Shown here one piece after another: positions 1,245 through 64,000 of a stretch of 64,000 bases of DNA. Within the stretch, counting starts at the first letter, position 1. Every line of letters starts with the position of its first letter. Source of the DNA: Barthelona sp. PCE. Its lineage: Eukaryota. Below the pieces are notes generated by a model. It was given only the letters and a program-made list of their open reading frames with translations, was not told the DNA's origin and did no database searches. Both the position numbers and the translations under genes were made by a program. The stretch covers positions 1,426,001-1,490,000 of the forward strand of contig JAUFOR010000002.1 in assembly GCA_040285745.1 (NCBI GenBank). The letters are read 5' to 3'.

Positions 1245-2495
1245 CTACTCTTCCTTACTCTTGAGATATTCCTTTGTTAGGTCATCAGCATCAACCAGAT
1301 CGAAAACAAATGAGTTAATCAACACCTGTTCTCCAATCTTAAAGGTGCCTTCAAAACCACCGGTGAAGCGTTCCAAAAACTTTCCTCCTACAAAACCACT
1401 GTTCCTCGATGGTACTTCAAAAATAGAGATAGTCTCGTTTTCGAACTTCTTGATCACAAATTTCCTTCCAGCTCGATCTCCCTGCATTGTTGCCAAGAAG
1501 TTCATGTCAGGGTCAGCATCGACGACAATCACTTCCTCTGTCTCTTCCTTCTCTTCCTCGCACGTGGTGTTCTGCTCAATGCCCATCTCAGCAAAATAAC
1601 GATAAGTGAATGCATCACAGTGAGTAATATACATTTCTCTTCCGAAGATGTTCACAACACTTTCTGTGCGGAGGTCATCCATCGTGAGAAGCTTGTTGCG
1701 CTTCAAGAACGCAACAGAGGGCCTACCGTTAACGATCTCATACAGTTCAGTCGTGTCATCAGCCAAAAAGAAGTGCAGGGTAAAGTGACGTAGCTCACCA
1801 AAGGGTTGGCCTCTTGTGTCCCAATACAACCAGAAACGCAATACCTTGCCGTCATACTGCAAGAATTGACCACGACGATCGACCTTGACCTTCTTTGGCT
1901 TAGTAGGAAGCTCAGGACATTCAGTTTGAGGATCAGGCTCATTTGCCTTCTGTTCAAAGCCGGAGCACTTGTAGAACTCACGTGTGAAGTCGTCACAAGA
2001 CCAAATGTAAAAGTCACGGCCATAAATGTGGGCAACTTCACCAACCTTAATATTGGTCCAGTGAATGTGCTTGCCTGGCTTGAGGAACGCTCCCTGTGTG
2101 AGGCCGGAGTTGGGCTCGTTGGGCTCAAACAAAGAGCAAGTATCAGAATCCAGGAAATAGTTCAGATAAAGCTTACGTAATACCTTCTCATCTACACCAA
2201 CGTCATCGTAGAAGCAGGCGAGGAAGCGGAGGGACATTCTGTCGTACTTAACGTATTGTGGGACATTTTCATCACCATCAGTAGCTAGCTTGGGAAGGGG
2301 ATGTTCTGTTGGGGTAGATTCCTGAACGTTTTCGTCCACGACAACGGGGAGACCATTGCAGAAGTCAAACTTATGACCTTTGGCAAAATTAGTCTTCTAA
2401 AAATTAGGAAATCGAATTATATTATGGTAAACGAAATTACATACCCTCGGATCAACGCCGGGCTGCAGGCCTGGGAGGAAAGGTAGGTTGCTCAT
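1245..2495 (-). CDS. EFHC1/EFHC2/Rib72-like DM10-domain axonemal protein; join(2495-2445, 2396-1245), ~400 aa
   Basis: Exon 1 MSNLPFLPGLQPGVDPR splices in phase 0 to KTNFAKGHKFDFCNG, the typical EFHC N-terminus. DM10 motifs include YDRMSLRFLACF, YDGKVLRFWLYWD and ISIFE...RNSGFVGGKFLER. Confidence 0.9.
2397..2444 (-). other. 48-nt spliceosomal intron in EFHC/Rib72 gene
   Basis: Minus strand reads GTATGT...CCTAATTTTTAG. Removing it eliminates an in-frame TAG and joins two homologous coding pieces. Confidence 0.9.
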
Positions 2496-2590
2496 CTTCA
2501 AAACTTTTAGAAAGGGGGTGAATAAACCGAAACAAACCGTTTCACGGTTTCTCACCCTTTTAATCTGTATCATACCCACATAGCAATATA

Positions 2591-13728: not shown

Positions 13729-14199
13729 ATGTTAATTCCCACTTTTACAGATTTATGCAGCATTCTTCAAGGCAGATGGTCAAGGCTATTGGAGCAGCAT
13801 GCATTTGCAGAAACTTTTCCCTTCTTGGAGGAGGTATCGAACGAAATAGAGATTGTAAGTGTTAAAGAGAACAGCAACACATTCTCTTTACGGTGGTTTA
13901 AAATATCAGAAGATTTCACACGTCAACCTTTATGGCGCATGAGAATATGCGAAGAGAAGTCTGGATCTGTTAAGATTAGTGTGGATAGTAACACGATGCG
14001 TTGCGGTGACGGGTTTTATTGTCAAGCATCAGGCTGTATCCAGTTAAACATGAAACACGAAAAGGGAAGGATGATGCTTCAACTCCATATCGAAGAGGCT
14101 AATCGTATATCAATGATAAACACCTTCTTCACCAACAACCCAGAATCCAACGTGCCTCCTGTCCTATGGATGGGCGCTATGTATCGGATAGAGGTTTAG
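13729..14199 (+). CDS. Hypothetical protein
   Basis: 156-aa ATG-initiated ORF whose stop overlaps the stop of the convergent gene. Confidence 0.6.
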   Translation: MLIPTFTDLCSILQGRWSRLLEQHAFAETFPFLEEVSNEIEIVSVKENSNTFSLRWFKISEDFTRQPLWRMRICEEKSGSVKISVDSNTMRCGDGFYCQASGCIQLNMKHEKGRMMLQLHIEEANRISMINTFFTNNPESNVPPVLWMGAMYRIEV

Positions 14200-15431: not shown

Positions 15432-15439
15432 AGAAAAGG

Positions 15440-21231: not shown

Positions 21232-21818
21232 TTATAAAGAGGGAAAATTTGCTAAAGTAGTTGAGTGTTATGTTTGCTGTGCTTGGAGGGTTGTTTTGTT
21301 GCTAATATCACAGTTGAAGATGTTTGTATAATTGTAGGATGAAACTAACAATTGTTTTTTTTACAACTTTGTATTAACATTATATTTGAATGTATGCACT
21401 CACTGTACAAATTATGAATAAAACGGGTATACCGATTCTACGAGTCGATACATCAAGAAGATCTTCCACTAGGAGGATCTCTAAAATACCAACAGACACG
21501 AATGGGAAAGTCTAAGTCGTATTGCAGCTTCAATGAGTAAAATACCCGAAGGCTTTCACTGAAGCGGATAGGAGACTATATTGATTAATAGTTAGGATAT
21601 TCGTAAGAATATCCAAAACAGGTTCTTTATTATACTGTTCAGTTCCTACACTGTTCATGCATCATTCATCCTCTAGATTTAGTGATGAGGACACTTAAAA
21701 ATTCAAAATTTCAAGGTTTCAGTTTTTATTATTTCATAGCAAAATGATTTAGGCTCCTTTTGAATAAAAATATAACCACTGCATTATTTATGTATTGTTT
21801 TCAGTCGTAATATTGCGA

Positions 21819-22697: not shown

Positions 22698-23138
22698 GAT
22701 CTTGATACCCCAATAATGTGTGTAATGTGAAAGTGGTAGATTTTGGTAAGACAGCTCTTTGTTTGGAAAATTGTATCTCAAGGACCCTTATTTGACCAAC
22801 TTCAGCCCTTAAAAGGATGGTATGCCAAATTGAAATGCTGAATAAGTAGAATTGAAAGGCAGGCAATACTGTTTGTGATTGTTTTTGTATTTTGTGTAAC
22901 ATAGCCGTGCCAATATCGCTGAAACGAGGGCAAAACCTCTGAGAATCATGCTAACGATCTTGACGACGTAAATATATTGTTGTGGATTAGGTCGGTATTT
23001 AGCTAGATAAATATGTTGAAGTAACAAGTTATATTTATAGTAGAGCGGCATTATCAGGATCAACAATGTTTATTGGGAAAATATGGTGATTTCGTTACTT
23101 TTCTCCTTTTCTTTTATCTAAATTCACAAGTTATTACC

Positions 23139-24842
23139 ATGGATCCAAATGTCATGGTGATAGGCCAGTCTGACGAACTCAGTAATTCGCAGTTCCAAGC
23201 CAGCAACAAGATTCAACCATATCCAATCGAAACACTTCTTGCACAAATTCGCAACGAAAAAGTCCACACTAAGCAACCAGTGCAACCAGTGCAGGCAATA
23301 CAGCCAATTCAGGGTTATCAGATTACTGATTCTAAGAGCGCTTCACCTCAATATCTACAATTTCAAAACGTTCCCAACATGCAAGGGAGCGTTCAGGGTA
23401 TGCAAAGAATGCAAGGTATACAGGGAGTTCAGAACATGCAAAACGTACAGGGAATGCAAAATATGCAGATTGTACAAGGTGTTCAAAATATGCAGAACTT
23501 ACAAGGTATGCAGCCTATGCAAGGGTTTCCCAACCTTCCAGTTTATCACACGCTTCCTACCAATACGGCTACTATGAACAATTTTCTGACAACGTTCCGT
23601 GCATACCAGCCACTGTTTTTGGTGTCATCCCCAAACCCCATGCAGGTGCAACCGCCCGTGATGCCCCCAGAGAAGCCATCCGAAGCCAAGCTGGACCTTT
23701 CGTTTAAGAAGGATCCTGTGACTCGTAAGAATTACTCAAGCCTCGTCACAGAGGCATCCAACGTCCACGACGGCGGTGTTGCGCAGGTTGCCATCCCGGC
23801 AGACCAAGCAGAGGTTGAACTCGTCAGCTCCAAGTCGAAACGCAAGAAAGTTACGTATTATGACAGCATGGCGTTGGATGACGGTTGGCATTGGCGGAAA
23901 TACGGGCAGAAGTTCAATAAGAGCAACCCGTTTCCGACATGTTACTATAAGTGCGCGTTCCCAAAGTGTCCAGCTAAGAAGCAGGTCTTCAAGGATTCTA
24001 AGACGAACAAGATCGTTTTTGTTTACAGGCATCAGCACAACCATAGGCGTCCGCGTGTCAAGCAAATGGTTGTCAGCACAACAGAGCAGCTCAGGATGGA
24101 GGTTGAGAAGAATACCTATCGTGATGAGGTCATTTATGGAGAGAAGCACGTTGTTAACTCCGTGCTCAGTGACATTGTCCAAGGAATCGCAACCAACTTC
24201 AGCGAGAGCAAGAAACGCGGTCGATCTGTATACCCACAACAGCGCTTTGTTGTTGAAATAGAGCCTGAAAAAGTTAATATTGTGGATCATTGCAACGATG
24301 GCTTTTCGTGGAAAAAGTATGGTCAGAAAACTGTCAAGGGCTCAAGCGTTGCAAAGGCTTATTTTAGATGCGCTGTGCCCACGTGTCCGGCGAAGAAGTT
24401 GGTGCAAATGCCAGCATCTGAGGACAGTACGAATAGATCCATCCTGGTAACATACGAGCACTGTCACAACCATTGCAAGTCTATCACAAGGGCAATGCCT
24501 GTTGCTGAAGGTCTCCCCACAAAGGCTCAGGCTGTTCGCCGTAAAAAAGGCCGTCGACGCCGTAGCGCAAAGCCTCGTGCCTCGCGTAGGGCATCATCTA
24601 CAGCGCCAAAGCTTGAAATGTCATTAGATATCCCAACCAAAGAGGAGGAGAGTCTTGTTCTTCATGATTTACAACCTTCCAGCAGTGTAGCGCCTTCTAT
24701 GAGTCCCAGTCTTAGTATGAGCATGTCTTTCGATCCAGAAGACCTAATGCGCCCCTCAGAATCTGTTTATTTTGAGCCTGATCAGTATCCCTTGCCTTCA
24801 TTCAGTTTTTCTTTTGATAACATCTTTACGGAACCATTCTAA
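23139..24842 (+). CDS. WRKY transcription factor with two WRKY domains
   Basis: DDGWHWRKYGQK...CAFPKC...HNH and NDGFSWKKYGQK...CAVPTC...HNH, with a Q-rich N-terminus and an acidic C-terminus. Confidence 0.95.
   Translation: MDPNVMVIGQSDELSNSQFQASNKIQPYPIETLLAQIRNEKVHTKQPVQPVQAIQPIQGYQITDSKSASPQYLQFQNVPNMQGSVQGMQRMQGIQGVQNMQNVQGMQNMQIVQGVQNMQNLQGMQPMQGFPNLPVYHTLPTNTATMNNFLTTFRAYQPLFLVSSPNPMQVQPPVMPPEKPSEAKLDLSFKKDPVTRKNYSSLVTEASNVHDGGVAQVAIPADQAEVELVSSKSKRKKVTYYDSMALDDGWHWRKYGQKFNKSNPFPTCYYKCAFPKCPAKKQVFKDSKTNKIVFVYRHQHNHRRPRVKQMVVSTTEQLRMEVEKNTYRDEVIYGEKHVVNSVLSDIVQGIATNFSESKKRGRSVYPQQRFVVEIEPEKVNIVDHCNDGFSWKKYGQKTVKGSSVAKAYFRCAVPTCPAKKLVQMPASEDSTNRSILVTYEHCHNHCKSITRAMPVAEGLPTKAQAVRRKKGRRRRSAKPRASRRASSTAPKLEMSLDIPTKEEESLVLHDLQPSSSVAPSMSPSLSMSMSFDPEDLMRPSESVYFEPDQYPLPSFSFSFDNIFTEPF
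23379..23525 (+). repeat. Degenerate 9-nt coding repeat ([M/V/I/L]-Q-x tripeptide) in WRKY N-terminus
   Basis: MQG S VQG MQR MQG IQG VQN MQN VQG MQN MQI VQG VQN MQN LQG MQP MQG. Confidence 0.85.
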
Positions 24843-26177: not shown

Positions 26178-27229
26178 ATCCCTAGTTTAAATGCTGAATG
26201 AGTGCGATAAAGGTTGAAATAAATGAACCAGGACTAATTCAATAATGTTGTTTGGAGTAGAATGTTTCACCATTTTTAAGTGACAGGCGCGGTTAATCAA
26301 TTGGGTGGATCGTATTATGGGTCTGTATTTTTTTTGTAGTTGCATTGTTTCACATTAATAGTTTTTCTGGTATATGCGTAGTTTTATAGGTTTTTTGTTT
26401 TCTAAAAATCATGTTTGATTGAGATTCATGGGCACAGGCATCCTACATAGCAGTTTTTTGATTGCTCAAGATCTGAATTAATGTTTTTACTTATTTGGAT
26501 ATTAATACGTTCTTTTTTTATTGAAAATGTGGCTAATTTTGGTTATTGTGACGTAGATATGAAACAATATATGAATTATGAGGTATTTTAATGGTATAAT
26601 GCTTTGTAGCTGTTTTCTAGCTGTTAATATCGATTGTTTAACAACGCAATGCGTCTTATTTGAACTGTTTTTACTATGTATACACGAAATGTTACATAAA
26701 TGATGAGTATTGTAAGAATTTTGTAGTATATTAGTTTTCTTGCAATATGGTGTTCCTATTGAGATAAAATGAATCAAAAGTCCCCACCAAAAGGAGTTCA
26801 TTTGAAAATAACGTTGTCTAAAGCTAAGAATAAAAAAATCTTTTGTGCTAAAATAGTTTTAGACTGAATACTGGTGAAACGGAATGTATATTAGCAAAAA
26901 TCCCTGTATAAAGATAACTTACTAAGTTTATGTGGTAGTAACTCGAGAAATCAATATTTCTTCAAATATATGAACTTGATGCATATTTCAAACGACAAAC
27001 ATACTGAAATTCCTTAGTAAAGTGTTTATTACTTCTATTATCACTATAAAATCAGTTTTAGTTTGAAAATACATAACATTCCTCTATCTATCGTGCGGTC
27101 TGACTTTTGTCACTGAAACTCCGCCGGTTTGTTTGTATAAGCATCATTAGTCACAAATTACAGATTATAAGAACATCTTTTATACTTATTATTTCTAAAC
27201 TCTTTTAAATTATATATTTTACTAAAACA

Positions 27230-38351: not shown

Positions 38352-40013
38352 ATGGCAGAATATGTGGGCCGTGTTGTTGCAGCAGCGCAGGGTACTGGTG
38401 ATTTGAGTCTTCTATTGCAAAATTTAAAGATATTCGATGTTCGTGACGGCCATCTCAGCGAAGAGACCGATATTGCAATTCTTGACGGTGTTATAGTGGG
38501 TATCGGAGCTGGAATTTACACAGAAGCTGTCAAAAAGGTCAATTGTGTTGGTCTCATTGCTGTTCCCGGTTTCATTGATTCTCACGTTCATATTGAGAGT
38601 TCTCTACTTGCACCAGCGCACTTCTCATCGCTGGTCACCAAATACGGCACCACAACTTGCGTGTGTGATCCCCATGAGCTAGCAAATGTTGTTGGTGGTG
38701 ATGCGGTACGTTACGTCGTTGAATCAAATGAAGTGCTCCCCAACGACCTCAAATGCATGGTTCCTTCATGTGTACCAGCGACACACCTTGAAAGCAACGG
38801 GTCCGTGTTGGATGCAGAAGCAATCGCTGAGTTGGCCGATCTAGACGGTGTGCTTGGTCTTGCTGAGGTCATGAATGTGCCTGGGGTCCTGTACCAGGAC
38901 AGCGAGATGATGAAGAAGCTGGCTATTTTCAAGAACAGGCAAATCGATGGACACGCACCATCAGTATCAGGTGCAGGGCTCAACGCCTACATGGCAGCTG
39001 GTGTCAGAAATGACCACGAGTGCACCACTGCGGACGAGGCCCGTGAGAAGGTGAGGAAGGGAATGCACGTTTTTATTAGAGAAGGATCTGCCTGTAAGGA
39101 TCTTTATAATTTAATTGGAGCTGTTACTAATGAGTTGAGTGATTACTTTAGTTTTTGCACAGATGACAAGAACTGTGTCGATATTGAGGCAACCGGACAT
39201 ATTGATACAATCATTAGGAGAGCAATTTTGTCAGGTTTACCTTTACATCTCTGTTATAAACTTGCAACGCTCAGTGCTGCCCGTCATTTTGGATTCAGCG
39301 ATAGAGGGTTGATTGCCCCCGGTATGCGTGCAGATATCGTGCTTGTTAGTGATTTGCACATGGTTTCAGTTGAACAAGTTGTTATCAACGGTACGCTCCG
39401 GTCAGAAGCTAAGTTTCCTTTGATTGAACACAGCGTCACCAAGAGGGCTACGTGCGTTGTCCTCAGTGAACTGGACCCACTGATGCTTAAAGATGAACAG
39501 CGCACTGATTTTGTCATTGGAGTTCACCCAGGTTCAATTGTGACTGAGAAACTAACCTGCTGCAGTGCTGATGAAATCGACATGTGTGGCGTTATTCACC
39601 GCCACGGGCACAATGCCAATAGATGCATTGGTAGCGTTAAGGGATTTCAGCTAAAGAAAGGATGTGCGCTTGCTACAACAATTGCACATGATAGCCACAA
39701 CATTGTTTTTGTAGCAAGTGATGCAGAGAAAGCCGTGATTGCGATTGAAAGGCTGGTTGAGATAGGGGGCGGTATGTGCGTTGTTGAAGGTGATAAAGTA
39801 GTTGATTTTCCGCTGGAGATTGGTGGTCTGATGACTGGAAGCGATATGAAACACGCAATGGAATCCCTGGAGCTCGTACATAATACAGCAAAGAGTATTA
39901 GTGCATTGGAGGAGCCATTCATGACGCTAAGTTTTATAGCTCTTCCTGTAATTCCTTCTTTGAAAATCACAGATAAGGGTCTTGTAGACGTTGAGAAGTT
40001 TGATTTCGTGTGA
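38352..40013 (+). CDS. ade: Adenine deaminase, prokaryotic AdeC type
   Basis: PGFIDSHVHIESS, DPHELANV, GLAEVMN, IDGHAP, DHEC, IREGS, FCTDD, IAHDSHNI and PFMTLSFIALPVIPSLKITDKGLVDV. Confidence 0.95.
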   Translation: MAEYVGRVVAAAQGTGDLSLLLQNLKIFDVRDGHLSEETDIAILDGVIVGIGAGIYTEAVKKVNCVGLIAVPGFIDSHVHIESSLLAPAHFSSLVTKYGTTTCVCDPHELANVVGGDAVRYVVESNEVLPNDLKCMVPSCVPATHLESNGSVLDAEAIAELADLDGVLGLAEVMNVPGVLYQDSEMMKKLAIFKNRQIDGHAPSVSGAGLNAYMAAGVRNDHECTTADEAREKVRKGMHVFIREGSACKDLYNLIGAVTNELSDYFSFCTDDKNCVDIEATGHIDTIIRRAILSGLPLHLCYKLATLSAARHFGFSDRGLIAPGMRADIVLVSDLHMVSVEQVVINGTLRSEAKFPLIEHSVTKRATCVVLSELDPLMLKDEQRTDFVIGVHPGSIVTEKLTCCSADEIDMCGVIHRHGHNANRCIGSVKGFQLKKGCALATTIAHDSHNIVFVASDAEKAVIAIERLVEIGGGMCVVEGDKVVDFPLEIGGLMTGSDMKHAMESLELVHNTAKSISALEEPFMTLSFIALPVIPSLKITDKGLVDVEKFDFV

Positions 40014-53036: not shown

Positions 53037-53306
53037 ATATCAAAAATGGTTGTTTGTCACATATTTTTTTGTTGCTTTGGGAATTATCGGTATATGGATT
53101 GTGGCATATGGGGTTGTACGGTGGTATATCCATATGGCACGGTTTGAAGCACAGTGAAATGTCTTAAATGCTGAAATCAGTGCAGGTTTCGACTTCTAGT
53201 ATATTTACACAAATTTCTTAAGATTGCACGGTTGTATAAGGTATATTTTATTCTATTGAACTGAATACTGTAAGCAAAAACCTGCTTTTACTTAATATAT
53301 CTTAAT

Positions 53307-54048
53307 ATGTCCGATTCTAGCAGCCGCGCCATCATCAAAAACGCAGATATGTCTGAGGACATGTATGTTTACCCACTTTTGCATTTTTTAGGCGTTTAAC
53401 GACTTTTAAATGCGAAAAAAGAAGTGTTTATGTTTTAGCTTACATTTAGGCAGCAGTATGTACATTATTTGCGCATGTTAGGGTATTACTGAGATATGTT
53501 GCGGTGCGATGGACTATGTACGAGCGTATTTTACAATTTGAATTGCTTAACTTAGCCATCTATCCTTTGTACTGATATGGTGATCTTTTACGTCAATGCT
53601 CCTCACATAATGGACAACGGGCAAGCGAAGATTGTTTTGGCAAAGAAAGTTTTTTTTTTTGTTGTGTCAGTATTGTTTCGTATCTCAAAAAATATCCCTA
53701 CATGTTCATCAAGATTCGAATATTGATGAAAACTAACACCTAGAGACGCCATTGACTGCGCTCAGTCCGCTCTCGAGAAGTTCAACATCGAGAAAGACAT
53801 TGCAAGCTACATTAAGAAGGAATTCGAGTATGCTTTTTGAATTGGCACCCCTAAATATGATCTTATGGTTGTATAATAAGTTTTTGGATGCCTGATTTTT
53901 TAGTTTATTAATATTTAGTCGCAAATACGGTTCTTCCTGGCACTGCATCGTGGGTAGAGCCTTCGGCAGTTATGTCACCCACGAGACCAAGCACTTTATC
54001 TACTTCTACAAGGGTCAGCTCGCTTTCTTGCTCTTCAGATCCGGTTAA
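53307..54048 (+). CDS. DYNLL1: Dynein light chain LC8; join(53307-53362, 53450-53455, 53744-53827, 53919-54048), 91 aa
   Basis: Spliced product [91 protein letters not shown] is colinear with canonical LC8. Absent from the ORF track. Confidence 0.96.
53363..53449 (+). other. LC8 intron 1 (87 nt, phase 2)
   Basis: GTATGT...GCTTACATTTAG; required to restore the conserved MQQD. Confidence 0.88.
53456..53743 (+). other. LC8 intron 2 (288 nt, phase 2)
   Basis: GTATGT...ACTAACACCTAG. Confidence 0.9.
53828..53918 (+). other. LC8 intron 3 (91 nt, phase 2)
   Basis: GTATGC...ATTAATATTTAG; restores KKEFD-RKY. Confidence 0.92.
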
Positions 54049-54166
54049 GTGAAATTATGTTGTAAACTCTGTTATTTTACCTCCTCCTTTATTATTAATG
54101 AAAACTACACATATTTATGTTATGTTGTTAATAGTAGAAAAGTGACTCAAAAATATTTAACACTAT

Positions 54167-55248: not shown

Positions 55249-58200
55249 ATGTTAAAGAAATTTACAAATCTTAAGATAGGTATATTTTTGTGCCTTTTGC
55301 TAGTTTCTCAAGCATCTGTGACAATTATAAAGGGCTTTGCAGACTCTGATCTCATCGACGGCTCCGATTCAAAGGGTAGAAGACTCCAATGCATTAATGG
55401 AGGCTCAATTTGTTTCCCTTGGGATCTTGCAGATATTGAGCAAACGAAGACCTACAGCAGTCTTAGATACGGAGAAGGTGCATCCAGCACCGCTAGTGCT
55501 TACATGAAACAGCACCCCCTGCTTCACCAGTATCCATTAACCAGCAACAGTGCAGGTACCGGAAACGGCCCTACTTTGACATGTAAGATGTATCCCACTT
55601 CTGAAAGTTATACCATCAAAACATACACTGTTACAATTGGATCAGGATCACTTGCTTGTGTGAATAGTTATGGTGTTTATTCGAGTTATTGTTCAGCAAG
55701 ATATTCGGTGGTGGTCACTGTCAATCCATCTACAAACTTAGATTATAGTATATCTATAACCGGTAGTTCTGTTTCAAGTACTTATTGCTATTTAAAAAGT
55801 TCTTTTAACATGAAATTTATTGATTATGAGACTAAATTGTTTACTCAAACTGCTGGATGTACCGATGGATGCACTGCAGTTGATGTGTCTGCCGATCCAA
55901 CATGTGCAAATGGAGGTGTACTTAAAACTAACCGTTATTGTGCATGTACATCAGGATTTGGAGGTCGTTCTTGTGAGGTAACGCTCACTGACGATGTCTA
56001 TTCCACTGCACCTTGGCTTGGTTATGAAACCACTTTCAAATCACTTTTTGAATTGGCTTCAACAACTTCTATCAAGGTTGCTGTTACAGTCAGTATTGAA
56101 TCGGGAATTTCTCCCAAACTTTTAAATCGATTCCCGGTCAAGGTTGATTTGTTCAAAGGCGGTGAGTTCGTCGAGACATTGGCTACTGATGCTTATGTTG
56201 GTGATATCCTCACAATTGACACTTCATCATTAGACGCTGACGCTGTTTACACGCTTCATTCATCATTTTATGATGGAAACCATACTTGGAATTTCAAACA
56301 CTCCAACTTCTACGGTTTCTATCTTTATACAACAGAACCAACCGCTACCAAGAAGAAGAGTTTGTATTCAACACTATTCCCAGTAATTAACAGTTTTGGT
56401 ACAGGTCAACAAGGTTATACTACATCTGTTTTCTATTCAACAATGGTTGCTCTCAGATCTTCCTATTCTTATTATTACAAGGTTTACTATTACCCATACT
56501 GTGACTTCTCTGTTTCCCCAACTCTAATTGATGTTGATTCAGGTACAGTTCGATTTTTCGAACCTGGAGACCAAGATTCAGAGTTTTACTCATGTTTCTA
56601 TCGTGAGATTGGTACATCAACTGGTTTAGCCAGTGTTACACCCGGCGGTAAACATTTATTTGAGAATATAGGTACTGTTAGTAGCATTGCTTATCGTAAA
56701 GATACTGTTGTTTTTTGTCCCCCTAATAGAGTATGTTCGACTGGCCAGTATGGTGCATTTATTGTGCAAAGACAAGGTCTTCCTGCAAAATTACATCATC
56801 TAATTGGAGGAGAGCATGGTGTTTATGCTGTTTTACATCGTAGAGATTCAGAATCAACAACTTCATCTTTTATCACAGCAACAACTTCGCATTTAATCAC
56901 TGAAAAAATGCATGGTCCTGCCAACACCCCTCCTTATAGAAATGACATTAGGAGAGATAATTTTGAATATGAAGGTGAAAAGATCGCAAAGGTTTTATCA
57001 TTGGAGGAACAGGGTGATTACTATCCGATGGGAATGTGCACAATCAATTCAATTGGTTCAGTTTACTCAGAAATCCCTTCTTACGGTAACACAATGGATT
57101 ATAAGTGTTATAATCCATCAGGGGCTGATTATGATTCGTCTTATGTTGACTTAAAACGTAAAGTGGTTGCTTCTCCTGGTGAACTTGTTTATTTGAGTGA
57201 ACAGGGAACTGTTTCTATCTCATCAGAATTGTACCCTCTGTACATGAAGGTATTGCCTGATTTGATCACGTTCACAACTGCAAAAGTATTCACATTTCCA
57301 TTAGAGCAGAACGTGTTTGGTTATATGTTTTACATTAAGATGCCAAATAAGCCAATTCGAGCTACAACAACATTGGCAGAAAATACATACGGATGGAATG
57401 TCGCGGTTGGTATGATTGAGAATCCTACCATGCTCCCGTGTCAAAGAAGTCTGTTCATTCAGGATTACACGTTTGATCCAGAGGTTACATACACTATCAC
57501 AATTTGTTATGGTCAAACAACAGCAGATATTCCAACTATTACTTTCCAGGATACCGTTGAGCTCTACCCTGCTGCTACTGCTACTGAGAAAACATTTGGC
57601 AGTTGGACTGTTACTACAACACAGCCTTTATCCACTCGTTTGTATTATGCTTTTGCTGACATAACTCCTCTTACACACGTGACACCTGCAGCGTACATTA
57701 CTGCTACAGGAACAGTCACATCAACATCAAACCCCAATTTTGGTTTCCTACATGCCACAAGAAAGGACGGAACAACATTCAAGACTCTTGACTGGGCAGC
57801 ATTCTGGCGCCAAGCGGATGATCAGGATCAACCGATGGTTGGTTACGATGATAAGAAGCTTGGACTGAATGTGATGTCGAATCTTGGATCGCCTGCGATT
57901 GGCGCCTTCAACGCTTCATTTGCTTCATTCACGTACTCTTCGGGACACAACCAAGGCTTTGATTTGGAGGAAAGTACTGATTTCTGCCGTACTGGTACTG
58001 GTAATTCTGCTGGTGTCGATCGTTGCACTTGTGGTGATGATTTCTATGGTGATAACTGTCAATACATGATCATTGATGGCGAAGCAACCAGCGACTGGAC
58101 ATACACTGTTGCTCGTGATACCCGCTATCTACCCAACGTTTTCAAGTTTACCCCTCAAGCGCTTGCTACAGTCAGGAACGTAAAGGCTCTCTATAACGTC

Positions 58201-61200
58201 TCAGTGCCCCTTTACATCAAGGTTAAGTTCCCTTATGTTACTGAAGATCGAGTGAATTTTGGTCACATCTCAGTTTCCACCTTTGAACCACGCACGTATT
58301 ACGATGGTGAGTTTAATCTTACCACCATTGAAGATTACATTGTTATCAAGAACACAACAGGTATGGGTGATGTTTATCAGATGGTTAATATTCCTCTTGA
58401 CACTGATGATGATGTCTATGTTCTCACACAGTTCGGTATGGTTGGCGCTGAGATCAGTGTCGGTTTCGAATGTGCCGCGAACTGCCATGGTATTGGTATA
58501 TGTGGTTACGATGGTTCATGTAGTGACTGTGCGCATGCTGATCGTTTTTGTAATGCAGATTTCTATCCCAGTGGTTGTCCCCCGGGTAAGTATATCAAGC
58601 AAGATGACGGTTCATGTGAGCCTGTTTGCGATGAACTTCCTGATAATGCCGACTGTGTTGCCCCTGATGTCTTCGTATGTAAGGGTGGCTACGAGTTGAA
58701 CGCTGATGAGACTTTATGTGTCGAGGCATGCACTCTAGACTGTGTCACAAACAGCAAGTGCGTTCGTCACAATGTCTCATATCAAGAATGCGTTCCCAAG
58801 GACGGATACAAGTGGGTTGATATCGCTGAACAGACCCTGGGCGTCGAGCCCATCTGTGCCAACGGATGCCCCAAGAACTCGCGTTGTAACGCCCCAGATA
58901 CATGTGCATGTATGCCTGACTACTCTTATGATCAGAGCAGCGGTGCGTGTGAGCCAAACGTGGACTTTGATTTCACTGTTTCAGCTCCATACTATGAGGT
59001 GTTTAACGGTAAGTCTAACTATTACCGAAGTGGTGATACTATTTCCGGTACAGTTGAGGTTAGTTTCAACAATAAGCCAGTTGCTTATTTCCAAGCGTCC
59101 ATTTTATACATGCAACTATCATGTAATGGAGGAAAGAACAACAAGATATTTACTACAGGTGTCTTTTCCAAGAATGGAAAGTACAACTATGGTTTTAAAC
59201 TTGATTCATTCGGTGTTTGCGAGCTGAATCTTATTCATAAGCAGAAATCTGTTGGAAAAGCAAAGATATTTGTTGGTTACAGCACAGATCAAACCCCAAA
59301 GGCTCGCCTTTCCAGATCTTATGGTACCACATCTTTCTCAGTGCACGGTTATATTTTCGATAACATCATTAAATCTCCTATCCGTACTGAGTACAGCTCA
59401 CTTAACTATGTAGATGGTGATTTTACGCTTGAAATAGATTGTGACTCTTATGTCACATCACCTTTTTCACTGAATACTGTTGTTAATTTCGTAGAATTAG
59501 GTCAGTACAATCATAACATGGAGGATTATTTCACTTGTGACGTTAAGTTGCAAAAGGATGGTGTGTACTATGTTGATGAAACGGTTAAAGCAAAGCTTAA
59601 CTATAGCATGGAGTTTTATGATCTGAACGGTAAGAAACCATTTGTTTTTGTTGAAGGTTATTCTCGTCGTCTGCGTTTGTTACCTCATAATAATGTTAAC
59701 GATATGAACATCGATGTTTCTTTCGATGGGGATATTGGAAGCAAATGTAATGTTGATCTGAGAACTACACATTGTGTACATGATAATATTGGATCGTTAA
59801 AAATGTGTTACAATCCTACTGATTGGGCATCAACAATCACAGACAAGATCGTTCGTGGAAACAACGCATCTCACTCTCACTGGGTTGATGTTGTTGTTTA
59901 CGGATGTACTGGTGTTGTTAGCCAGCCAAATACCGAGACTATTGGCAGTATTATTGTCGAGACTCGTCCTGACTCCATTGCAGAAGAGTGGGCTGCTGTT
60001 TCCAAGCATCCTTGTGTTTTGACAAATGCTTTTACGAAGATAGAAATGGTTGGTCGCAGCCATCTCAAGGTTGAAACAGCTTTCGATAACAGCGATAAAC
60101 GTCACTCACATACTCAGTACATTGTACCTTGGAACGTTGAAAAGAGTATTGACCCAGCTCGTCCTGAATGTGTTGAATCTCGTTTCGGTGATTTCTCGAA
60201 TGGTTATTTGTTTGTTGGCGACCAACTTCGTTCGAGAGATTTGGCCATCAATTATCCCTCAAATGCTGTCTTTAAGGATGGTAGATACTCATATAAGGCC
60301 GAAAGATATTCCAAGGCTGATGAGCAGGAGCAATTTTATTTGGAGGTTGCAGATTTTGATTTTACTGAGTTTGAGATTTCCGAATCTTCACTTTGTGGAG
60401 AAACACTCTTCCAGGGTAAGAACTGGACAACTGAACCTTATGTCAAGGTCGGTATGCTTTGTAATGATCCTTTCACCATTGAGCTTCGATCTGAGGGTGG
60501 TTCCACATTACAATCCGCTTCAGCAATGAGCGACATTGATTTTGCTTCATTGACACCAAATACTTATCAGCTCTACGTTTCTAGAACTGATATGTATGGT
60601 ACAACAAGGGAGAATACATGTAATTTCAAGGTACAGGATCAAAATTACTGTGCTCGTGTGATGTTTTCAAACACAGATGTTGTTAAAACCAATCGTCCAA
60701 GTCTTTTATATTACTTCAGTCACAGTCATATGTACAAGTTTTCACATCTCGATATCGAGCAGATCTCTGGTCCCCAGAACGTAACTTTTGAATTTGATGA
60801 GTATCGTAATGCTATTCGCAATAAGGGTCAGTTCATGCTACCTGGTACATACCGTTTCAGACATAATATTACGCTAACAAAGATGAGTGACAACTCCGAT
60901 TGCATGCGTGAGTTAAAGTCATTCTCGTTCAAGGTTGAGTATCCCGAGATCACTGTCAAACCCAAGAAGACTCATGTGACAACAAGTATGTCAGACCCCC
61001 TAACTGTCAACCACATTGTGTATGATAAATTGTACGGTACAAGTGATGGTTTCACATATTCATGGGCATGTCGTGCGTACAACGAAACACGCATGAGATA
61101 TGACAATGAATTGTGTGACACTATCATGCCCGGTATCAAGTCTCGCGCTTTGATATTACAGCCTGAACAGCTGGCTTTGCTTGAAGATAATACAAACATG

Positions 61201-64000
61201 TACCTGGATTTTATTGTGTCTCATAACGATACTGGACGTTCAACAAAGGTCAAGATTCTCGTTAGAGTCTTTGATAACGTTGCGTATGGAGCTTTCGATG
61301 CTGAGATCTCTCTTTCTAGGATTGGTGATGTTCGTCGCATTTCTCCTCACAGCGCTAATGTGTTCTTCGATATGGTTCCCAGAAATCCTGGAACCAAGTT
61401 GTACACATGTACATACAAGGCTCTTGAGGTTACAGGCGCTATCACGAACAAGGATCTTTATGATTGGGGTGACATGGAACTTGATGCTGTTGCCAACGTT
61501 TCAATTGCTGAAGAGTTCTTCAATTTGAAGCTCAAGGTTGCAAAGTACGATCGATTTTATTCATTCTTTAACATAAAGAAACCTGTGGAAGAAACAATTT
61601 TCCTCTCAAAGACTTTTAAAGAAACGAAACGTTTGGCTTTCAATCGCTTTGGGTTGTTTGCATGTTCTTCATTTAAATTCGAAGCAACGTGTTCATCATA
61701 CGGTAGAGTATCAAAGGATGAATGGGAGTTCGCTACTTATTGTCCAGACGCTAGTGGTTATTTTAATGTTAGCAGACTTGATGGTTCGCGTTACCAAATG
61801 GTATTTAAACCATCTTTTGGTGAGAAGGGCCGTGAATGGGCTAATGATCTTGTTAAAGGAACTTCAGTCATTGCTAGACCCGATGTGTCTTACACATACA
61901 CATATATTAACCCTGTAACGCGTCGCAGAACTATTTTACATAGTTCAGACGATGTTAAGAGTAGTTTCACAACACCTCCTTTGCCATTTGCTAATGTTAA
62001 TGTTACTTTCGGAATTGAGGTTACTGATAAGGCATATGACATCAAGTCAGTGCGTACTCTGGACGTCGAGATGAGTGCACCAGAACCCGCACCTCTTTCT
62101 ATTGATAATTCTAATGAGATTTCTGCAGCTTCAACACTAGTCCGTGATATGAACAAGGCTTTAACCGATCCTGCCAAACAAGCATCTCAAAATGCGCACC
62201 TGAAGGATCTTACAAAGGGTCTAAAAAGTGTCTTTTCTAGACCATCAACAAATTCATTCATGGGAAGAATCAAAAAGAAGCGTGTTCTTGCTCATGTCAA
62301 AGCATCTTTGTTGGATGTTGCTGGTTTGGTTCGCAACTCTGGTTCTTCTGGTAACGACACAATTGACTTCACTGATGAAGAGATTGACGCCATGACCACT
62401 GAAGAACTGATGCCGATCATTGATCTTGCATCGTTGTACTCCATGTATGATGAGCTCGGTGTGATTTCACCCATCGACATAGTCAGCAACTTGTTGGTTA
62501 TGGTGGATTCTGACTCGTCGACCGCGCTCATGCCAACTATTCTCGATCTTTGTGATTACTTGCCTTATGCGTTCCTCGATGAGGACACTGATGCTGTCAA
62601 GGAAGCAACTGGTGAGTCACTTATGACTTTGGTCAACACCATGTTAACCACCCTGAAGGACCGCCAGTTCGAGAATGAAACCGTTCTTGAGTGGGCACAC
62701 GAAGTTGCAGTCTCTGGCTTCAATCTCATGGCACGCTACAGCGACGAGCAAGAGGGTGATATGTTTAATGAAAGCCTCATCAACGCGGCCTTTGTCAAGG
62801 ATAACATCGCAGACTTGGTCAACATGACTGAGTCTACTTTCACCTTCACGGGTGACTCCGAAACCGATGACGACCGCGAACTCACTGTGGGATATATGAC
62901 TGTGCCTTTCGCCGGCTCCCACTTTGAGTATGTCGAAGGCTTAATTGGTTTCAGCGACGTCTTCTCCCTCAAACTTCAGTATCAGAATACCGAGCTCGAG
63001 ATTTCTGATGTCGACTTAACTTCCATCTCCTTTGGACTCCCAATTGTGGGCTCATACGAGAAGAACGTCACTGCATCTGATATTACTGTCATGCGTTTCG
63101 ATGGCGAGACTTGGGTTCCTGCCCAGTGCTCCGTCACATACGCACCGTTCGCAAGTACAGTATCGTTCACGTGTACTGAGACAGGCACTTTCGCTGCGTT
63201 CGTCACCAAGGCCATGAGCTGCGGATCGACTTTCTTTGGCGAAGACTGCGACGAGTGTGTCCGTAACCACTACGGTGAGCACTGCGAGCCATGTCCTCTC
63301 GAATCCCCCAACGGTATATGTGACGCCGGAATCACTGGAACTGGTGCTCTTGTGTGTGTCTCTGACGCATACAGCGGTGAGCTTTGTGACACATGTAACT
63401 CCGGTTACTACGAACAGGGCTCTGCCTGTATCACATGTCCTCCCTGCGAGCGCGGTACGTGTCTTGATGGCACCGGTAACGGAACCTGTCAGTGCGAGCA
63501 GTACTTCACCGGTACTCTCTGTAACATGTGCGAGTTCGGCCGTACTGGTACTGATTGTGATGAGTGTATCCCCAAATACTACTCATCTGAATGTATCGCG
63601 GCTGGCGCTTGTATCCACGGCACTTTGTTCGATGGCTTCAACGGCAACGGCAGCTGTGTGTGTAACGAAGGTTACACCGGTGCTGATTGTTCAGAAACCG
63701 ACTCTGGTTACTATGGTCCCAACGCTGTCCCATGTCGCTCTTGCGAAAACGGCGGTACATGCGACGATGGTACTTCCGGATCAGGTATGTGTCTCTGTCC
63801 CGCAGGCTACAACCCCGGTACAAACTGTTCTGCATGTATGCCCGGATATGTCGGTGCTTCTTGTGAGCTTGCCCGTGACTGCGGACCCGGTGGTGTTGTT
63901 TTTGACGGAATCACCGGAAACAACACGTGCCTTTGTGCAACTGGTTTCAACTCCAGCGCAGGTGGTGTGTGTGACGTTTGTGAGAGCAACCGATTCGGTG
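55249..64000 (+). CDS. Giant secreted/surface protein (>2,900 aa, 3'-partial) with EGF, REJ-like, GAIN/GPS-like and laminin-type EGF modules
   Basis: Frame +1 opens at ATG 55249 after a TGA at 55228-55230, with signal peptide MLKKFTNLKIGIFLCLLLVSQASV. EGF-like motifs lie at ~55900, ~57985 and ~58470-58950; REJ-like FTYSWAC at ~61050; a GPS-like motif at ~63090-63205; Cys-rich repeats run to the window end. The parts translated by hand are open and the ORF track shows no closed frame +1 ORF here. Confidence 0.85.
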   Translation, partial: MLKKFTNLKIGIFLCLLLVSQASVTIIKGFADSDLIDGSDSKGRRLQCINGGSICFPWDLADIEQTKTYSSLRYGEGASSTASAYMKQHPLLHQYPLTSNSAGTGNGPTLTCKMYPTSESYTIKTYTVTIGSGSLACVNSYGVYSSYCSARYSVVVTVNPSTNLDYSISITGSSVSSTYCYLKSSFNMKFIDYETKLFTQTAGCTDGCTAVDVSADPTCANGGVLKTNRYCACTSGFGGRSCEVTLTDDVYSTAPWLGYETTFKSLFELASTTSIKVAVTVSIESGISPKLLNRFPVKVDLFKGGEFVETLATDAYVGDILTIDTSSLDADAVYTLHSSFYDGNHTWNFKHSNFYGFYLYTTEPTATKKKSLYSTLFPVINSFGTGQQGYTTSVFYSTMVALRSSYSYYYKVYYYPYCDFSVSPTLIDVDSGTVRFFEPGDQDSEFYSCFYREIGTSTGLASVTPGGKHLFENIGTVSSIAYRKDTVVFCPPNRVCSTGQYGAFIVQRQGLPAKLHHLIGGEHGVYAVLHRRDSESTTSSFITATTSHLITEKMHGPANTPPYRNDIRRDNFEYEGEKIAKVLSLEEQGDYYPMGMCTINSIGSVYSEIPSYGNTMDYKCYNPSGADYDSSYVDLKRKVVASPGELVYLSEQGTVSISSELYPLYMKVLPDLITFTTAKVFTFPLEQNVFGYMFYIKMPNKPIRATTTLAENTYGWNVAVGMIENPTMLPCQRSLFIQDYTFDPEVTYTITICYGQTTADIPTITFQDTVELYPAATATEKTFGSWTVTTTQPLSTRLYYAFADITPLTHVTPAAYITATGTVTSTSNPNFGFLHATRKDGTTFKTLDWAAFWRQADDQDQPMVGYDDKKLGLNVMSNLGSPAIGAFNASFASFTYSSGHNQGFDLEESTDFCRTGTGNSAGVDRCTCGDDFYGDNCQYMIIDGEATSDWTYTVARDTRYLPNVFKFTPQALATVRNVKALYNVSVPLYIKVKFPYVTEDRVNFGHISVSTFEPRTYYDGEFNLTTIEDYIVIKNTTGMGDVYQMVNIPLDTDDDVYVLTQFGMVGAEISVGFECAANCHGIGICGYDGSCSDCAHADRFCNADFYPSGCPPGKYIKQDDGSCEPVCDELPDNADCVAPDVFVCKGGYELNADETLCVEACTLDCVTNSKCVRHNVSYQECVPKDGYKWVDIAEQTLGVEPICANGCPKNSRCNAPDTCACMPDYSYDQSSGACEPNVDFDFTVSAPYYEVFNGKSNYYRSGDTISGTVEVSFNNKPVAYFQASILYMQLSCNGGKNNKIFTTGVFSKNGKYNYGFKLDSFGVCELNLIHKQKSVGKAKIFVGYSTDQTPKARLSRSYGTTSFSVHGYIFDNIIKSPIRTEYSSLNYVDGDFTLEIDCDSYVTSPFSLNTVVNFVELGQYNHNMEDYFTCDVKLQKDGVYYVDETVKAKLNYSMEFYDLNGKKPFVFVEGYSRRLRLLPHNNVNDMNIDVSFDGDIGSKCNVDLRTTHCVHDNIGSLKMCYNPTDWASTITDKIVRGNNASHSHWVDVVVYGCTGVVSQPNTETIGSIIVETRPDSIAEEWAAVSKHPCVLTNAFTKIEMVGRSHLKVETAFDNSDKRHSHTQYIVPWNVEKSIDPARPECVESRFGDFSNGYLFVGDQLRSRDLAINYPSNAVFKDGRYSYKAERYSKADEQEQFYLEVADFDFTEFEISESSLCGETLFQGKNWTTEPYVKVGMLCNDPFTIELRSEGGSTLQSASAMSDIDFASLTPNTYQLYVSRTDMYGTTRENTCNFKVQDQNYCARVMFSNTDVVKTNRPSLLYYFSHSHMYKFSHLDIEQISGPQNVTFEFDEYRNAIRNKGQFMLPGTYRFRHNITLTKMSDNSDCMRELKSFSFKVEYPEITVKPKKTHVTTSMSDPLTVNHIVYDKLYGTSDGFTYSWACRAYNETRMRYDNELCDTIMPGIKSRALILQPEQLALLEDNTNMYLDFIVSHNDTGRSTKVKILVRVFDNVAYGAFDAEISLSRIGDVRRISPHSANVFFDMVPRNPGTKLYTCTYKALEVTGAITNKDLYDWGDMELDAVANVSIAEEFFNLKLKVAKYDRFYSFFNIKKPVEETIFLSKTFKETKRLAFNRFGLFACSSFKFEATCSSYGRVSKDEWEFATYCPDASGYFNVSRLDGSRYQMVFKPSFGEKGREWANDLVKGTSVIARPDVSYTYTYINPVTRRRTILHSSDDVKSSFTTPPLPFANVNVTFGIEVTDKAYDIKSVRTLDVEMSAPEPAPLSIDNSNEISAASTLVRDMNKALTDPAKQASQNAHLKDLTKGLKSVFSRPSTNSFMGRIKKKRVLAHVKASLLDVAGLVRNSGSSGNDTIDFTDEEIDAMTTEELMPIIDLASLYSMYDELGVISPIDIVSNLLVMVDSDSSTALMPTILDLCDYLPYAFLDEDTDAVKEATGESLMTLVNTMLTTLKDRQFENETVLEWAHEVAVSGFNLMARYSDEQEGDMFNESLINAAFVKDNIADLVNMTESTFTFTGDSETDDDRELTVGYMTVPFAGSHFEYVEGLIGFSDVFSLKLQYQNTELEISDVDLTSISFGLPIVGSYEKNVTASDITVMRFDGETWVPAQCSVTYAPFASTVSFTCTETGTFAAFVTKAMSCGSTFFGEDCDECVRNHYGEHCEPCPLESPNGICDAGITGTGALVCVSDAYSGELCDTCNSGYYEQGSACITCPPCERGTCLDGTGNGTCQCEQYFTGTLCNMCEFGRTGTDCDECIPKYYSSECIAAGACIHGTLFDGFNGNGSCVCNEGYTGADCSETDSGYYGPNAVPCRSCENGGTCDDGTSGSGMCLCPAGYNPGTNCSACMPGYVGASCELARDCGPGGVVFDGITGNNTCLCATGFNSSAGGVCDVCESNRFG

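What the first reader, a model, noticed from the sequence alone, without database searches (positions are those of the whole stretch)
53363..53918. Three introns of very different length all fold down to ~31-34 unpaired nucleotides
Seen in sequence: intron 1 (87 nt) pairs CACTT-TTGCATTT (53374-53386) with AAATGCGA...AAGTG (53408-53426), leaving 11+23=34 nt. Intron 2 (288 nt) pairs CATGTTAGGGTATTACTGAGATATG (53474-53498) with CGTATCTCAAAAAATATCCCTACATG (53679-53704), followed directly by a perfect 8-bp hairpin TTCATCAA/TTGATGAA (53705-53730) abutting the branch point, leaving 18+13=31 nt. Intron 3 (91 nt) pairs AATTGGCACCC (53840-53850) with GGATGCCTGATT (53886-53897), leaving 12+21=33 nt. Known: long cis-introns and trans-spliced intron halves in diplomonads are brought together by RNA base pairing. 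Inference: this spliceosome measures a fixed effective 5'SS-to-3'SS distance, extra sequence is tolerated only if looped out, and intron 2 resembles a structural precursor of a split intron.
Basis: partly seen in the sequence, partly recalled or inferred. Interest (0 to 1): 0.8.

Follow-up and report, generated by a model that had tools for sequence, protein, structure and literature searches.

The report
One zipped intron, two ordinary ones
A small dynein light-chain gene in an intron-poor flagellate has three real introns, but only the long one carries a helix stronger than chance, and the matching "folded lengths" of about 33 nucleotides are what any RNA of this composition gives.

Summary
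The region is an LC8 dynein light chain gene (53307-54048, + strand). It has three GTATGY...YTWAY-N4-AG introns of 87, 288 and 91 nt and a 6-nt microexon. The model rests on homology; no RNA data were available.

Only the 288-nt intron folds better than chance:
- Its MFE z-score is -2.91, with 0 of 200 shuffles folding as well.
- Its 22-bp end-bridging helix scores -25.0 kcal/mol on a windowed duplex statistic. This was reached by 1 of 300 shuffles and 3 of 500 natural 288-nt segments.

The stems in the two short introns are not significant (z -1.56 and -0.90).

The headline claim fails its control. Shuffled introns, and random window segments of 48-450 nt, fold to the same effective length (medians 32-36 nt against 33-36 observed). 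This is the generic closeness of the ends of folded RNA plus the 19 nt I kept unpaired. A fourth intron in the window (48 nt, EFHC-like gene) has no stable fold.

The idea itself, including the "precursor of a split intron" reading, is already published for Giardia, Spironucleus and Trichomonas (Hudson et al. 2019) and as yeast "zipper stems".

Verdict: one new example of a known kind, and no evidence for a fixed-length ruler.

The parts
53307..53362 (+). LC8 exon 1 (ATG to split codon AT|G)
   Evidence: Spliced CDS is 276 nt, 91 aa plus stop. The N-terminus aligns with full-length LC8 homologues.
53363..53449 (+). Intron 1, 87 nt, GTATGT ... CTTAC-N4-AG
   Evidence: MFE z -1.56, 15 of 200 shuffles as good. 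Inner helix 53379-53386/53408-53415 has P 0.81-0.96 and outer helix 53374-53378/53422-53426 has P 0.02 in the pre-mRNA fold.
53450..53455 (+). 6-nt microexon (GCAGCA) completing the codons for M-Q-Q
   Evidence: With it, the product reads ...DMQQDAIDC..., as in homologues P0288 and P0294. Without it the frame stays open but MQQ becomes I.
53456..53743 (+). Intron 2, 288 nt, GTATGT ... CTAAC-N4-AG
   Evidence: MFE -72.7 kcal/mol, z -2.91, 0 of 200 shuffles as good. With the splice motifs kept single-stranded, z -3.06.
53473..53498 (+). 5' arm of the intron 2 closing ('zipper') helix
   Evidence: 22 pairs in three helical segments. Duplex -22.0 kcal/mol. 19 of 22 pairs have P >= 0.75 when the whole pre-mRNA is folded.
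53679..53705 (+). 3' arm of the intron 2 closing helix
   Evidence: Same as the 5' arm. Windowed duplex statistic reached by 1 of 300 shuffles and 3 of 500 natural segments.
53705..53730 (+). Small hairpin (7 bp in the fold, 10-nt loop) next to the branch motif
   Evidence: -6.2 kcal/mol alone. Pairing probability only 0.19-0.22 in the pre-mRNA fold. Weak; not shown to be more than chance.
53733..53743 (+). Branch motif CTAAC plus N4-AG 3' splice site of intron 2 (branch A inferred at 53736)
   Evidence: The same YTWAY motif sits at -11 to -7 in 4 of 4 introns of the window. The branch A is inferred from the consensus, not mapped.
53744..53827 (+). LC8 exon 3
   Evidence: Pfam Dynein_light, E 2.1e-6, profile positions 16-44.
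53828..53918 (+). Intron 3, 91 nt, GTATGC ... TTAAT-N4-AG
   Evidence: MFE z -0.90, 33 of 200 shuffles as good. Claimed stem has P 0.33-0.60. Half-against-half duplex matched by 133 of 1000 shuffles.
53919..54048 (+). LC8 exon 4, ending in TAA
   Evidence: Pfam Dynein_light, E 3.8e-20, profile positions 46-86.
2397..2444 (-). Comparator: 48-nt intron of the EFHC-like (DM10) gene, GTATGT ... CTAAT-N4-AG, unstructured
   Evidence: Removing it joins a 17-aa first exon (from its ATG; the open frame runs 69 codons upstream) to the 1245-2339 ORF. The intron holds an in-frame stop. Constrained MFE 0.0 kcal/mol.

Best explanation
This is an ordinary LC8 dynein light chain gene in a compact, very intron-poor flagellate. 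It has three U2-type introns with strong, fixed signals: GTATGY at the 5' end, and a YTWAY branch motif four bases before the terminal AG.

The long intron (288 nt) carries a 22-bp interrupted helix. It starts 18 nt after the 5' splice site and ends 32 nt before the inferred branch A. The helix loops out about 180 nt, so the splice sites sit about as far apart as in a 50-57 nt intron. I infer that it acts like a yeast zipper stem or the stems of long Giardia and Trichomonas introns, helping a reduced spliceosome pair the two ends.

The stems seen in the two roughly 90-nt introns are what AU-rich RNA of that length forms by chance. The shared 'effective length' of 31-34 nt is the generic end-to-end closeness of any folded RNA plus the splice motifs held unpaired. 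It is not evidence of a ruler.

Shown: the gene model by homology, the helix, and its excess stability. Inferred: that the helix forms in vivo and helps splicing.
For: Gene model:
- Pfam Dynein_light hits on exons 3 and 4.
- An open 91-aa product.
- MQQ from the microexon matches homologues.

Intron-poor context:
- Long unbroken ORFs cover most of the window.
- Motif scans found only one further intron.

Intron 2 helix:
- z -2.91, 0 of 200 shuffles.
- z -3.06 with splice motifs held unpaired.
- Windowed duplex statistic matched by 1 of 300 shuffles and 3 of 500 natural segments.
- Pairing probabilities near 1 when the whole pre-mRNA is folded.
- The linkers sum to 50 nt. That lies inside the 42-85 nt range used to define yeast zipper stems (PMC12350175, passage read).

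Chance origin of the equal lengths:
- Shuffles give 35.0, 35.4 and 35.4 nt against the observed 34.9, 34.6 and 33.5.
- Natural segments of 48-450 nt give medians of 32-36 nt.
- Yoffe et al. report an end-to-end distance of about 12 for random RNA regardless of length (PMC3017586, abstract). Adding the 19 nt I constrained gives about 31.
Against: - No RNA data, so neither the junctions, the microexon nor the helix is confirmed experimentally.
- Intron 1 is borderline rather than clearly null. Its constrained MFE z is -1.89 (0.06 of shuffles as good) and its half-against-half duplex is matched by 27 of 1000 shuffles. Its inner hairpin is robust in context (P 0.81-0.96).
- The three lengths are tighter than most random triplets (P 0.056).
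- Only four introns were available, so a genome-wide ruler cannot be excluded.
- Thermodynamic models may mislead in vivo.
Confidence: 0.7

Rival explanations
1. This spliceosome measures a fixed effective distance of about 31-34 nt between splice sites. All three introns depend on their stems, and extra sequence is tolerated only when looped out.
For: - The three MFE folds leave 34, 31 and 31 unpaired exterior nt.
- The range is tighter than most random triplets (P 0.056).
- The same pattern is claimed for Giardia (35-45 nt), Spironucleus vortens (40-42 nt) and Trichomonas vaginalis (25-44 nt) (PMC6679479).
Against: - Shuffles and unrelated sequences give the same effective length.
- The stems of introns 1 and 3 are not significant.
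- The outer stem of intron 1 has P 0.02 in the pre-mRNA context.
- The 48-nt intron in the same window is unstructured.
- Counting only robust helices gives about 50, 55-57 and 91 nt, so the number depends on which stems are accepted.
Confidence: 0.15
2. The intron 2 helix is a relic of an inverted-repeat (foldback or MITE-like) insertion of about 231 nt into an originally 57-nt intron. It is tolerated because it folds away, not selected for splicing.
For: - Two imperfect 25-26 nt inverted arms bound the looped-out part.
- Removing 53474-53704 leaves 57 nt, close to the 48-nt intron.
- All the excess stability of the intron lies in the terminal helix.
Against: - No second copy of any part of the intron in the 64-kb window; the longest other match is 15 nt.
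- No target-site duplication is visible at the arm ends.
- The rest of the genome could not be searched.
- This origin would not exclude a present role in splicing.
Confidence: 0.2
3. The looped-out interior of intron 2 encodes an intronic small RNA (snoRNA-like), and the terminal helix is its processing stem.
For: Intron-hosted snoRNAs with terminal stems are common in eukaryotes (established knowledge). The interior is about 180 nt and folds into two hairpin domains.
Against: - Rfam gives nothing at gathering thresholds.
- The permissive scan gives only one chance-level match, E 3.5, on the opposite strand.
- By eye I found no properly placed C/D box pair beside the stem.
Confidence: 0.05
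4. The microexon is not used. A single 381-nt intron (53363-53743) is removed, giving an 89-aa protein.
For: Skipping the 6 nt keeps the frame open. The donor at 53363 and the acceptor at 53743 both fit the motifs.
Against: - The 6 nt are flanked by a full acceptor motif and a perfect GTATGT donor.
- They restore MQQ, which is present in full-length homologues.
Confidence: 0.05

Closest known systems
Structured long cis-introns of Giardia, Spironucleus and Trichomonas vaginalis (Hudson et al. 2019, PMC6679479, citing earlier Giardia work)
   Same: - Intron-poor genome.
- GTATGT-type donor.
- Branch motif fused to the 3' splice site at a fixed distance.
- A long intron with an internal helix that brings the splice sites close.
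- The same proposed meaning, including the step towards fragmented trans-spliced introns.
   Different: - The organism is not shown to be a diplomonad or parabasalid.
- Here the 'constant folded length' was tested against shuffles and natural controls and failed.
- The only unstructured short intron in the window is 48 nt, not about 33 nt.
Yeast zipper stems (RPS17B; Rogic et al. 2008, PMC2536676; in vivo probing, PMC12350175)
   Same: [quoted passage not shown]
- The intron 2 linkers (18 + 32 = 50 nt) fall in the 42-85 nt range of the yeast definition.
- Excess stability over shuffles is the accepted test there too.
   Different: - Different lineage.
- The branch-to-AG distance is fixed and very short here.
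- No functional or probing data exist for this intron.
Giardia trans-spliced, fragmented introns
   Same: Long complementary arms that could hold two intron halves together.
   Different: All four LC8 exons lie contiguously on one strand within 742 nt. Nothing here is split.
Generic end-to-end closeness of folded RNA (Yoffe et al. 2010, PMC3017586)
   Same: Predicted distance between the ends is small and independent of length and sequence. This is what my controls show for 48-450 nt.
   Different: This is a null expectation, not a biological system. It explains the equal lengths but not the excess stability of the intron 2 helix.

Membership tests
LC8 / DYNLL dynein light chain (Pfam PF01221) | Match to the Dynein_light profile over its whole length | tested here: met
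   Exon 4: E 3.8e-20, profile 46-86. Exon 3: E 2.1e-6, profile 16-44. The N-terminus including MQQ aligns with 89-aa homologues. Exon 1 alone is too short to score.
Metamonad-type structured introns (Hudson et al. 2019) | Extended 5' splice site GTATGT | tested here: met
   GTATGT, GTATGT and GTATGC in the LC8 introns and GTATGT in the EFHC-like intron: 4 of 4.
Metamonad-type structured introns (Hudson et al. 2019) | Branch motif fused to the 3' splice site at an invariant distance | tested here: met
   YTWAY at -11 to -7 in 4 of 4 introns. The EFHC-like intron was found using this motif, so only the three LC8 introns are independent. Irimia and Roy 2008 show the feature is convergent in intron-poor lineages (PMC2483917), so it does not place the organism.
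Metamonad-type structured introns (Hudson et al. 2019) | Introns longer than 50 nt carry internal stems more stable than chance | tested here: inconclusive
   Met for intron 2. Not met for intron 3. Borderline for intron 1.
Metamonad-type structured introns (Hudson et al. 2019) | Folded splice-site distance equals the uniform length of the organism's short introns | tested here: not met
   Folded lengths of 33-36 nt equal those of shuffles. The one short unstructured intron is 48 nt. Only four introns were available.
Metamonad-type structured introns (Hudson et al. 2019) | Host is a diplomonad or parabasalid | tested here: inconclusive
   TAA is used as a stop. The best non-self hits of a P4-ATPase and of DNA polymerase delta are 41-45% and 42-44% identical and come from many eukaryotic groups. 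None of the 120 listed for each is named as a diplomonad or parabasalid, and many are unnamed.
Yeast-type zipper stem | [quoted passage not shown] | tested here: met
   Intron 2: 18 nt (53456-53473) plus 32 nt (53705-53736) = 50 nt. Criterion taken from PMC12350175.
Yeast-type zipper stem | Disrupting the stem lowers splicing efficiency and restoring it rescues | not testable with these tools
   Needs a reporter experiment.
Giardia-type trans-spliced split intron | Exons transcribed from separate loci and joined through paired intron halves | tested here: not met
   All exons are contiguous on one strand.

The most novel reading that the evidence does not exclude
In a deep-branching, intron-poor flagellate with no close sequenced relative, and possibly outside the diplomonads and parabasalids, long introns must be zipped by an end-bridging helix to be spliced. 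That would mean a 'short-reach' reduced spliceosome has evolved, or persisted, in yet another lineage. The 288-nt LC8 intron next to a 6-nt microexon would then be a cis-intron already capable of surviving fragmentation.
Probability: 0.2. Interest if true: 0.5.

Novelty: new member of a known kind. Interest (0 to 1): 0.25.

Why it matters
The direct result is modest: one more long intron with a zipper-like helix in an intron-poor genome, a pattern already described in yeasts and metamonads.

The more useful result is methodological. 'Single-stranded distance after folding' does not separate real introns from shuffled or unrelated sequence. Every control lands at 32-36 nt whatever its length. 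Published and future claims of a constant folded length should therefore be tested by the stability of the bridging helix against controls, not by the length itself.

If the organism's full intron set showed such helices in all long introns, that would support a convergent link between spliceosome reduction and intron self-structure.

Tried and rejected
- Whole genome: none is held for this window, so no genome-wide intron set or repeat census was possible.
- RNA evidence: no RNA holder was listed for 53200-54150.
- Strict pattern GTATGT-N(10-40)-ACTAAC-N(2-12)-AG: 0 matches in the window. Looser scans gave many rows, of which I accept only the LC8 introns and the 48-nt EFHC-like intron.
- Candidate 84-nt intron at 2866-2949: rejected. 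The stop-to-stop listing shows one continuous 150-aa MORN-like ORF at 2564-3013. Its fold statistics are therefore dropped from all counts.
- Other candidates at 21392-21595, 26824-27004, 26617-27004 and 10840-10932: they join no convincing ORFs.
- Relatives for covariation: a metagenome scan with the upstream NOC3-like protein found none (302 pattern matches, none confirmed).
- Lineage: best non-self hits of two conserved proteins are about 40-45% identical and spread over opisthokonts, plants and protists. The best polymerase hit is a choanoflagellate and the nearest full-length LC8 cluster is from Mucorales. No placement was reached.
- Rfam and tRNA scans of the window: nothing.
- Promoter and terminator consensus scan: not above shuffles.
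- ORFs on either strand of the locus other than LC8: none convincing.
- The first fold of intron 2 was one base out of register (53457-53744). It was repeated correctly.
- Supplementary files of the cited papers were not opened. The per-intron folds of Hudson et al. are in additional files I did not see.

Full report
**What is there**

The finding lies in a small gene on the + strand. Splicing four exons gives a 276-nt reading frame and a 91-aa product ending in TAA. The exons are 53307-53362, 53450-53455, 53744-53827 and 53919-54048.

Exon 4 matches Pfam Dynein_light at E 3.8e-20 (profile positions 46-86). Exon 3 matches at E 2.1e-6 (positions 16-44). The gene is therefore an LC8-type dynein light chain.

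The second exon is only 6 nt. It completes the codons for M-Q-Q. Leaving it out keeps the frame open but replaces MQQ by I. Full-length homologues from a search of 1.84 billion representatives carry the same ...DMQQDAIDC... or ...EMQQEAIEC... stretch. That search gave 1876 hits at E <= 0.001. I aligned the 24 of the 150 listed hits that are 85-99 aa long. I therefore accept the microexon. No RNA data could be obtained, so all junctions rest on homology and splice motifs.

**Intron signals and genomic setting**

The three introns are 87, 288 and 91 nt. They begin GTATGT, GTATGT and GTATGC. Each ends with a YTWAY motif at -11 to -7, followed by four bases and AG.

The window is densely packed with long unbroken ORFs on both strands (43 ORFs of 150 aa or more). 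Of these, 33 were sent to Pfam, and 22 of the 33 returned a Pfam family at E <= 1e-5. They include ciliary proteins (FAM221, a DM10/EFHC-like protein), a WRKY protein, DNA polymerase delta and a P4-ATPase.

Two motif scans and a check of the inter-ORF gaps found only one further intron. It is a 48-nt intron at 2397-2444 on the - strand, and it joins a 17-aa first exon to the EFHC-like ORF. It has the same GTATGT and CTAAT-N4-AG signals. A candidate at 2866-2949 turned out to lie inside a continuous ORF and was dropped.

The genome is thus very intron-poor with strong, fixed splice signals. Irimia and Roy (PMC2483917, passages read) show this combination arose convergently in yeasts, a red alga, a microsporidian, Giardia and Trichomonas. 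It does not place the organism.

TAA is used as a stop. The best non-self hits of two conserved proteins are only about 40-45% identical and come from many eukaryotic groups. No protein named as diplomonad or parabasalid is among the 120 listed for each; many listed hits are unnamed. The diplomonad assumption is therefore neither confirmed nor excluded.

**Are the stems there?**

Yes. With the first 7 and last 12 nt held single-stranded, the MFE folds leave 34, 31 and 31 unpaired exterior nucleotides.

**Are the stems more than chance?**

Only in intron 2. The fold tool gives:

| Intron | z-score | Shuffles folding as well |
|---|---|---|
| 1 (87 nt) | -1.56 | 15 of 200 |
| 3 (91 nt) | -0.90 | 33 of 200 |
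| 2 (288 nt) | -2.91 | 0 of 200 |

An earlier fold of intron 2, one base out of register, gave z -2.39 with 3 of 200. With the splice motifs constrained, the z-scores are -1.89, -3.06 and -0.76 for introns 1, 2 and 3. The fractions of shuffles at least as stable are 0.060, 0.010 and 0.240.

The intron 2 closing helix has 22 pairs in three segments, and its duplex energy is -22.0 kcal/mol. I also scored the best 30-nt by 30-nt duplex between the 5' 70 nt and the 3' 95 nt of the intron:
- Intron 2: -25.0 kcal/mol.
- Shuffles: -14.9 +/- 2.8, with 1 of 300 as good.
- Natural 288-nt window segments of higher GC content: -15.0 +/- 3.8, with 3 of 500 as good.

When the whole pre-mRNA (53280-54100) is folded, pairing probabilities are as follows:
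- Intron 2 closing helix: 19 of 22 pairs at P >= 0.75.
- Intron 1 outer stem: P 0.02. Its inner hairpin is robust, at 0.81-0.96.
- Intron 3 stem: P 0.33-0.60.
- Small hairpin beside the intron 2 branch motif: P about 0.2.

**Is the common length of about 33 nt more than chance?**

No. I defined effective length as exterior unpaired nucleotides plus two per exterior stem.
- MFE folds: the real introns give 36, 35 and 33. Shuffles give medians of 35, 34 and 36, with 10th-90th percentiles of about 26-48.
- Boltzmann ensemble: the real values are 34.9, 34.6 and 33.5. Shuffles give 35.0 +/- 5.0, 35.4 +/- 5.2 and 35.4 +/- 4.8.
- Random natural segments of the window of 48, 60, 87, 91, 150, 288 and 450 nt give medians of 32-36 nt at every length.

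This is the known generic property that the ends of a folded RNA are close whatever its length. Yoffe et al. report about 12 for random sequence (PMC3017586, abstract). Adding the 19 nt I held unpaired gives about 31.

Only the tightness of the three values is mildly unusual. A range of 3 nt or less has probability 0.056 for random triplets. That figure takes no account of the freedom to choose stems by eye.

The 48-nt intron has no stable fold (constrained MFE 0.0). If only the robust helices are counted, the introns reduce to about 50, 55-57, 91 and 48 nt. The number one gets depends on which stems are accepted.

**How it most likely works**

The intron 2 helix starts 18 nt after the 5' splice site and ends 32 nt before the inferred branch A. 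These 50 nt of linkers fall inside the 42-85 nt range used to define yeast zipper stems from spliceosome modelling (PMC12350175, passage read).

I infer that the helix loops out about 180 nt and lets the two ends of a long intron find each other. This role is shown experimentally for yeast RPS17B (PMC2536676, abstract). It is proposed for long Giardia, Spironucleus and Trichomonas introns (PMC6679479, abstract and passages).

The helix might instead, or also, be the remnant of an inverted-repeat insertion into a 57-nt intron. No second copy exists in the window, but the genome could not be searched. An intronic small RNA is unlikely.

**Comparison with what is known**

Hudson et al. 2019 already state that base pairing in long introns constrains the distance between splice junctions to that of the short introns. 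They give 35-45 nt for Giardia, 40-42 nt for S. vortens and 25-44 nt for T. vaginalis. They also say that such pairing is a likely first step towards trans-spliced fragmented introns.

What is new here is one further example in an organism without close sequenced relatives. There is also a control result showing that folded length is not a valid statistic.

**Verdict**

The kind of feature is known, the instance is new, and interest is low to moderate.

Noticed in passing
window 53450-53455: A 6-nt microexon lies between an 87-nt and a 288-nt intron in an otherwise intron-poor genome. The acceptor of intron 1 and the donor of intron 2 are only 6 nt apart, so the two introns probably cannot be recognised at the same time and may be spliced in order. 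Skipping the microexon stays in frame.
   Followed up: partly
window 2397-2444 (- strand): A 48-nt unstructured intron sits near the 5' end of an EFHC-like (DM10 domain) ciliary gene. It has the same GTATGT and CTAAT-N4-AG signals. It is the only other intron I could find in 64 kb.
   Followed up: yes
window 53363-53369 with 53437-53443; 53828-53834 with the 3' end of intron 3: Without constraints, the MFE pairs the GUAUGU donor with the branch-motif region in introns 1 and 3. This is probably a by-product of both sites being complementary to snRNAs with related sequences.
   Followed up: no
LC8 gene, window 53307-54048: LC8 keeps introns in several independently intron-poor genomes. There are three here, a 32-nt intron in Giardia (PMC10711314, Table 1) and two in S. 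cerevisiae DYN2 (PMC3287188, abstract). That DYN2 is the LC8 orthologue is recalled, not tested. The Giardia intron is at codon position 3, so it is not at any of the positions here.
   Followed up: partly
window 53466-53473 and 53920-53927: A perfect 8-bp complement links the segment just 5' of the intron 2 helix to the start of exon 4 (part of pair I2). By my own rough estimate, a few such 8-mers are expected by chance in about 700 nt.
   Followed up: no
window 14196-15440: Gene packing is extreme. Divergent ORFs 14196-15431 (-) and 15440-16354 (+) are 8 nt apart, and ORFs 13729-14199 (+) and 14196-15431 (-) overlap by 4 nt.
   Followed up: no
window 38352-40013: An ORF with Adenine_deam_C (Adenine deaminase C-terminal) and Amidohydro_1 domains. 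I recall this adenine deaminase type as mainly bacterial, so it is a possible lateral transfer.
   Followed up: no
window 55249-63999: An open reading frame of more than 2917 aa runs off the window end and has no Pfam match at E <= 1e-5.
   Followed up: no
window 23073-24842: A protein with two WRKY DNA-binding domains. As far as I recall, this family has a patchy distribution outside plants.
   Followed up: no
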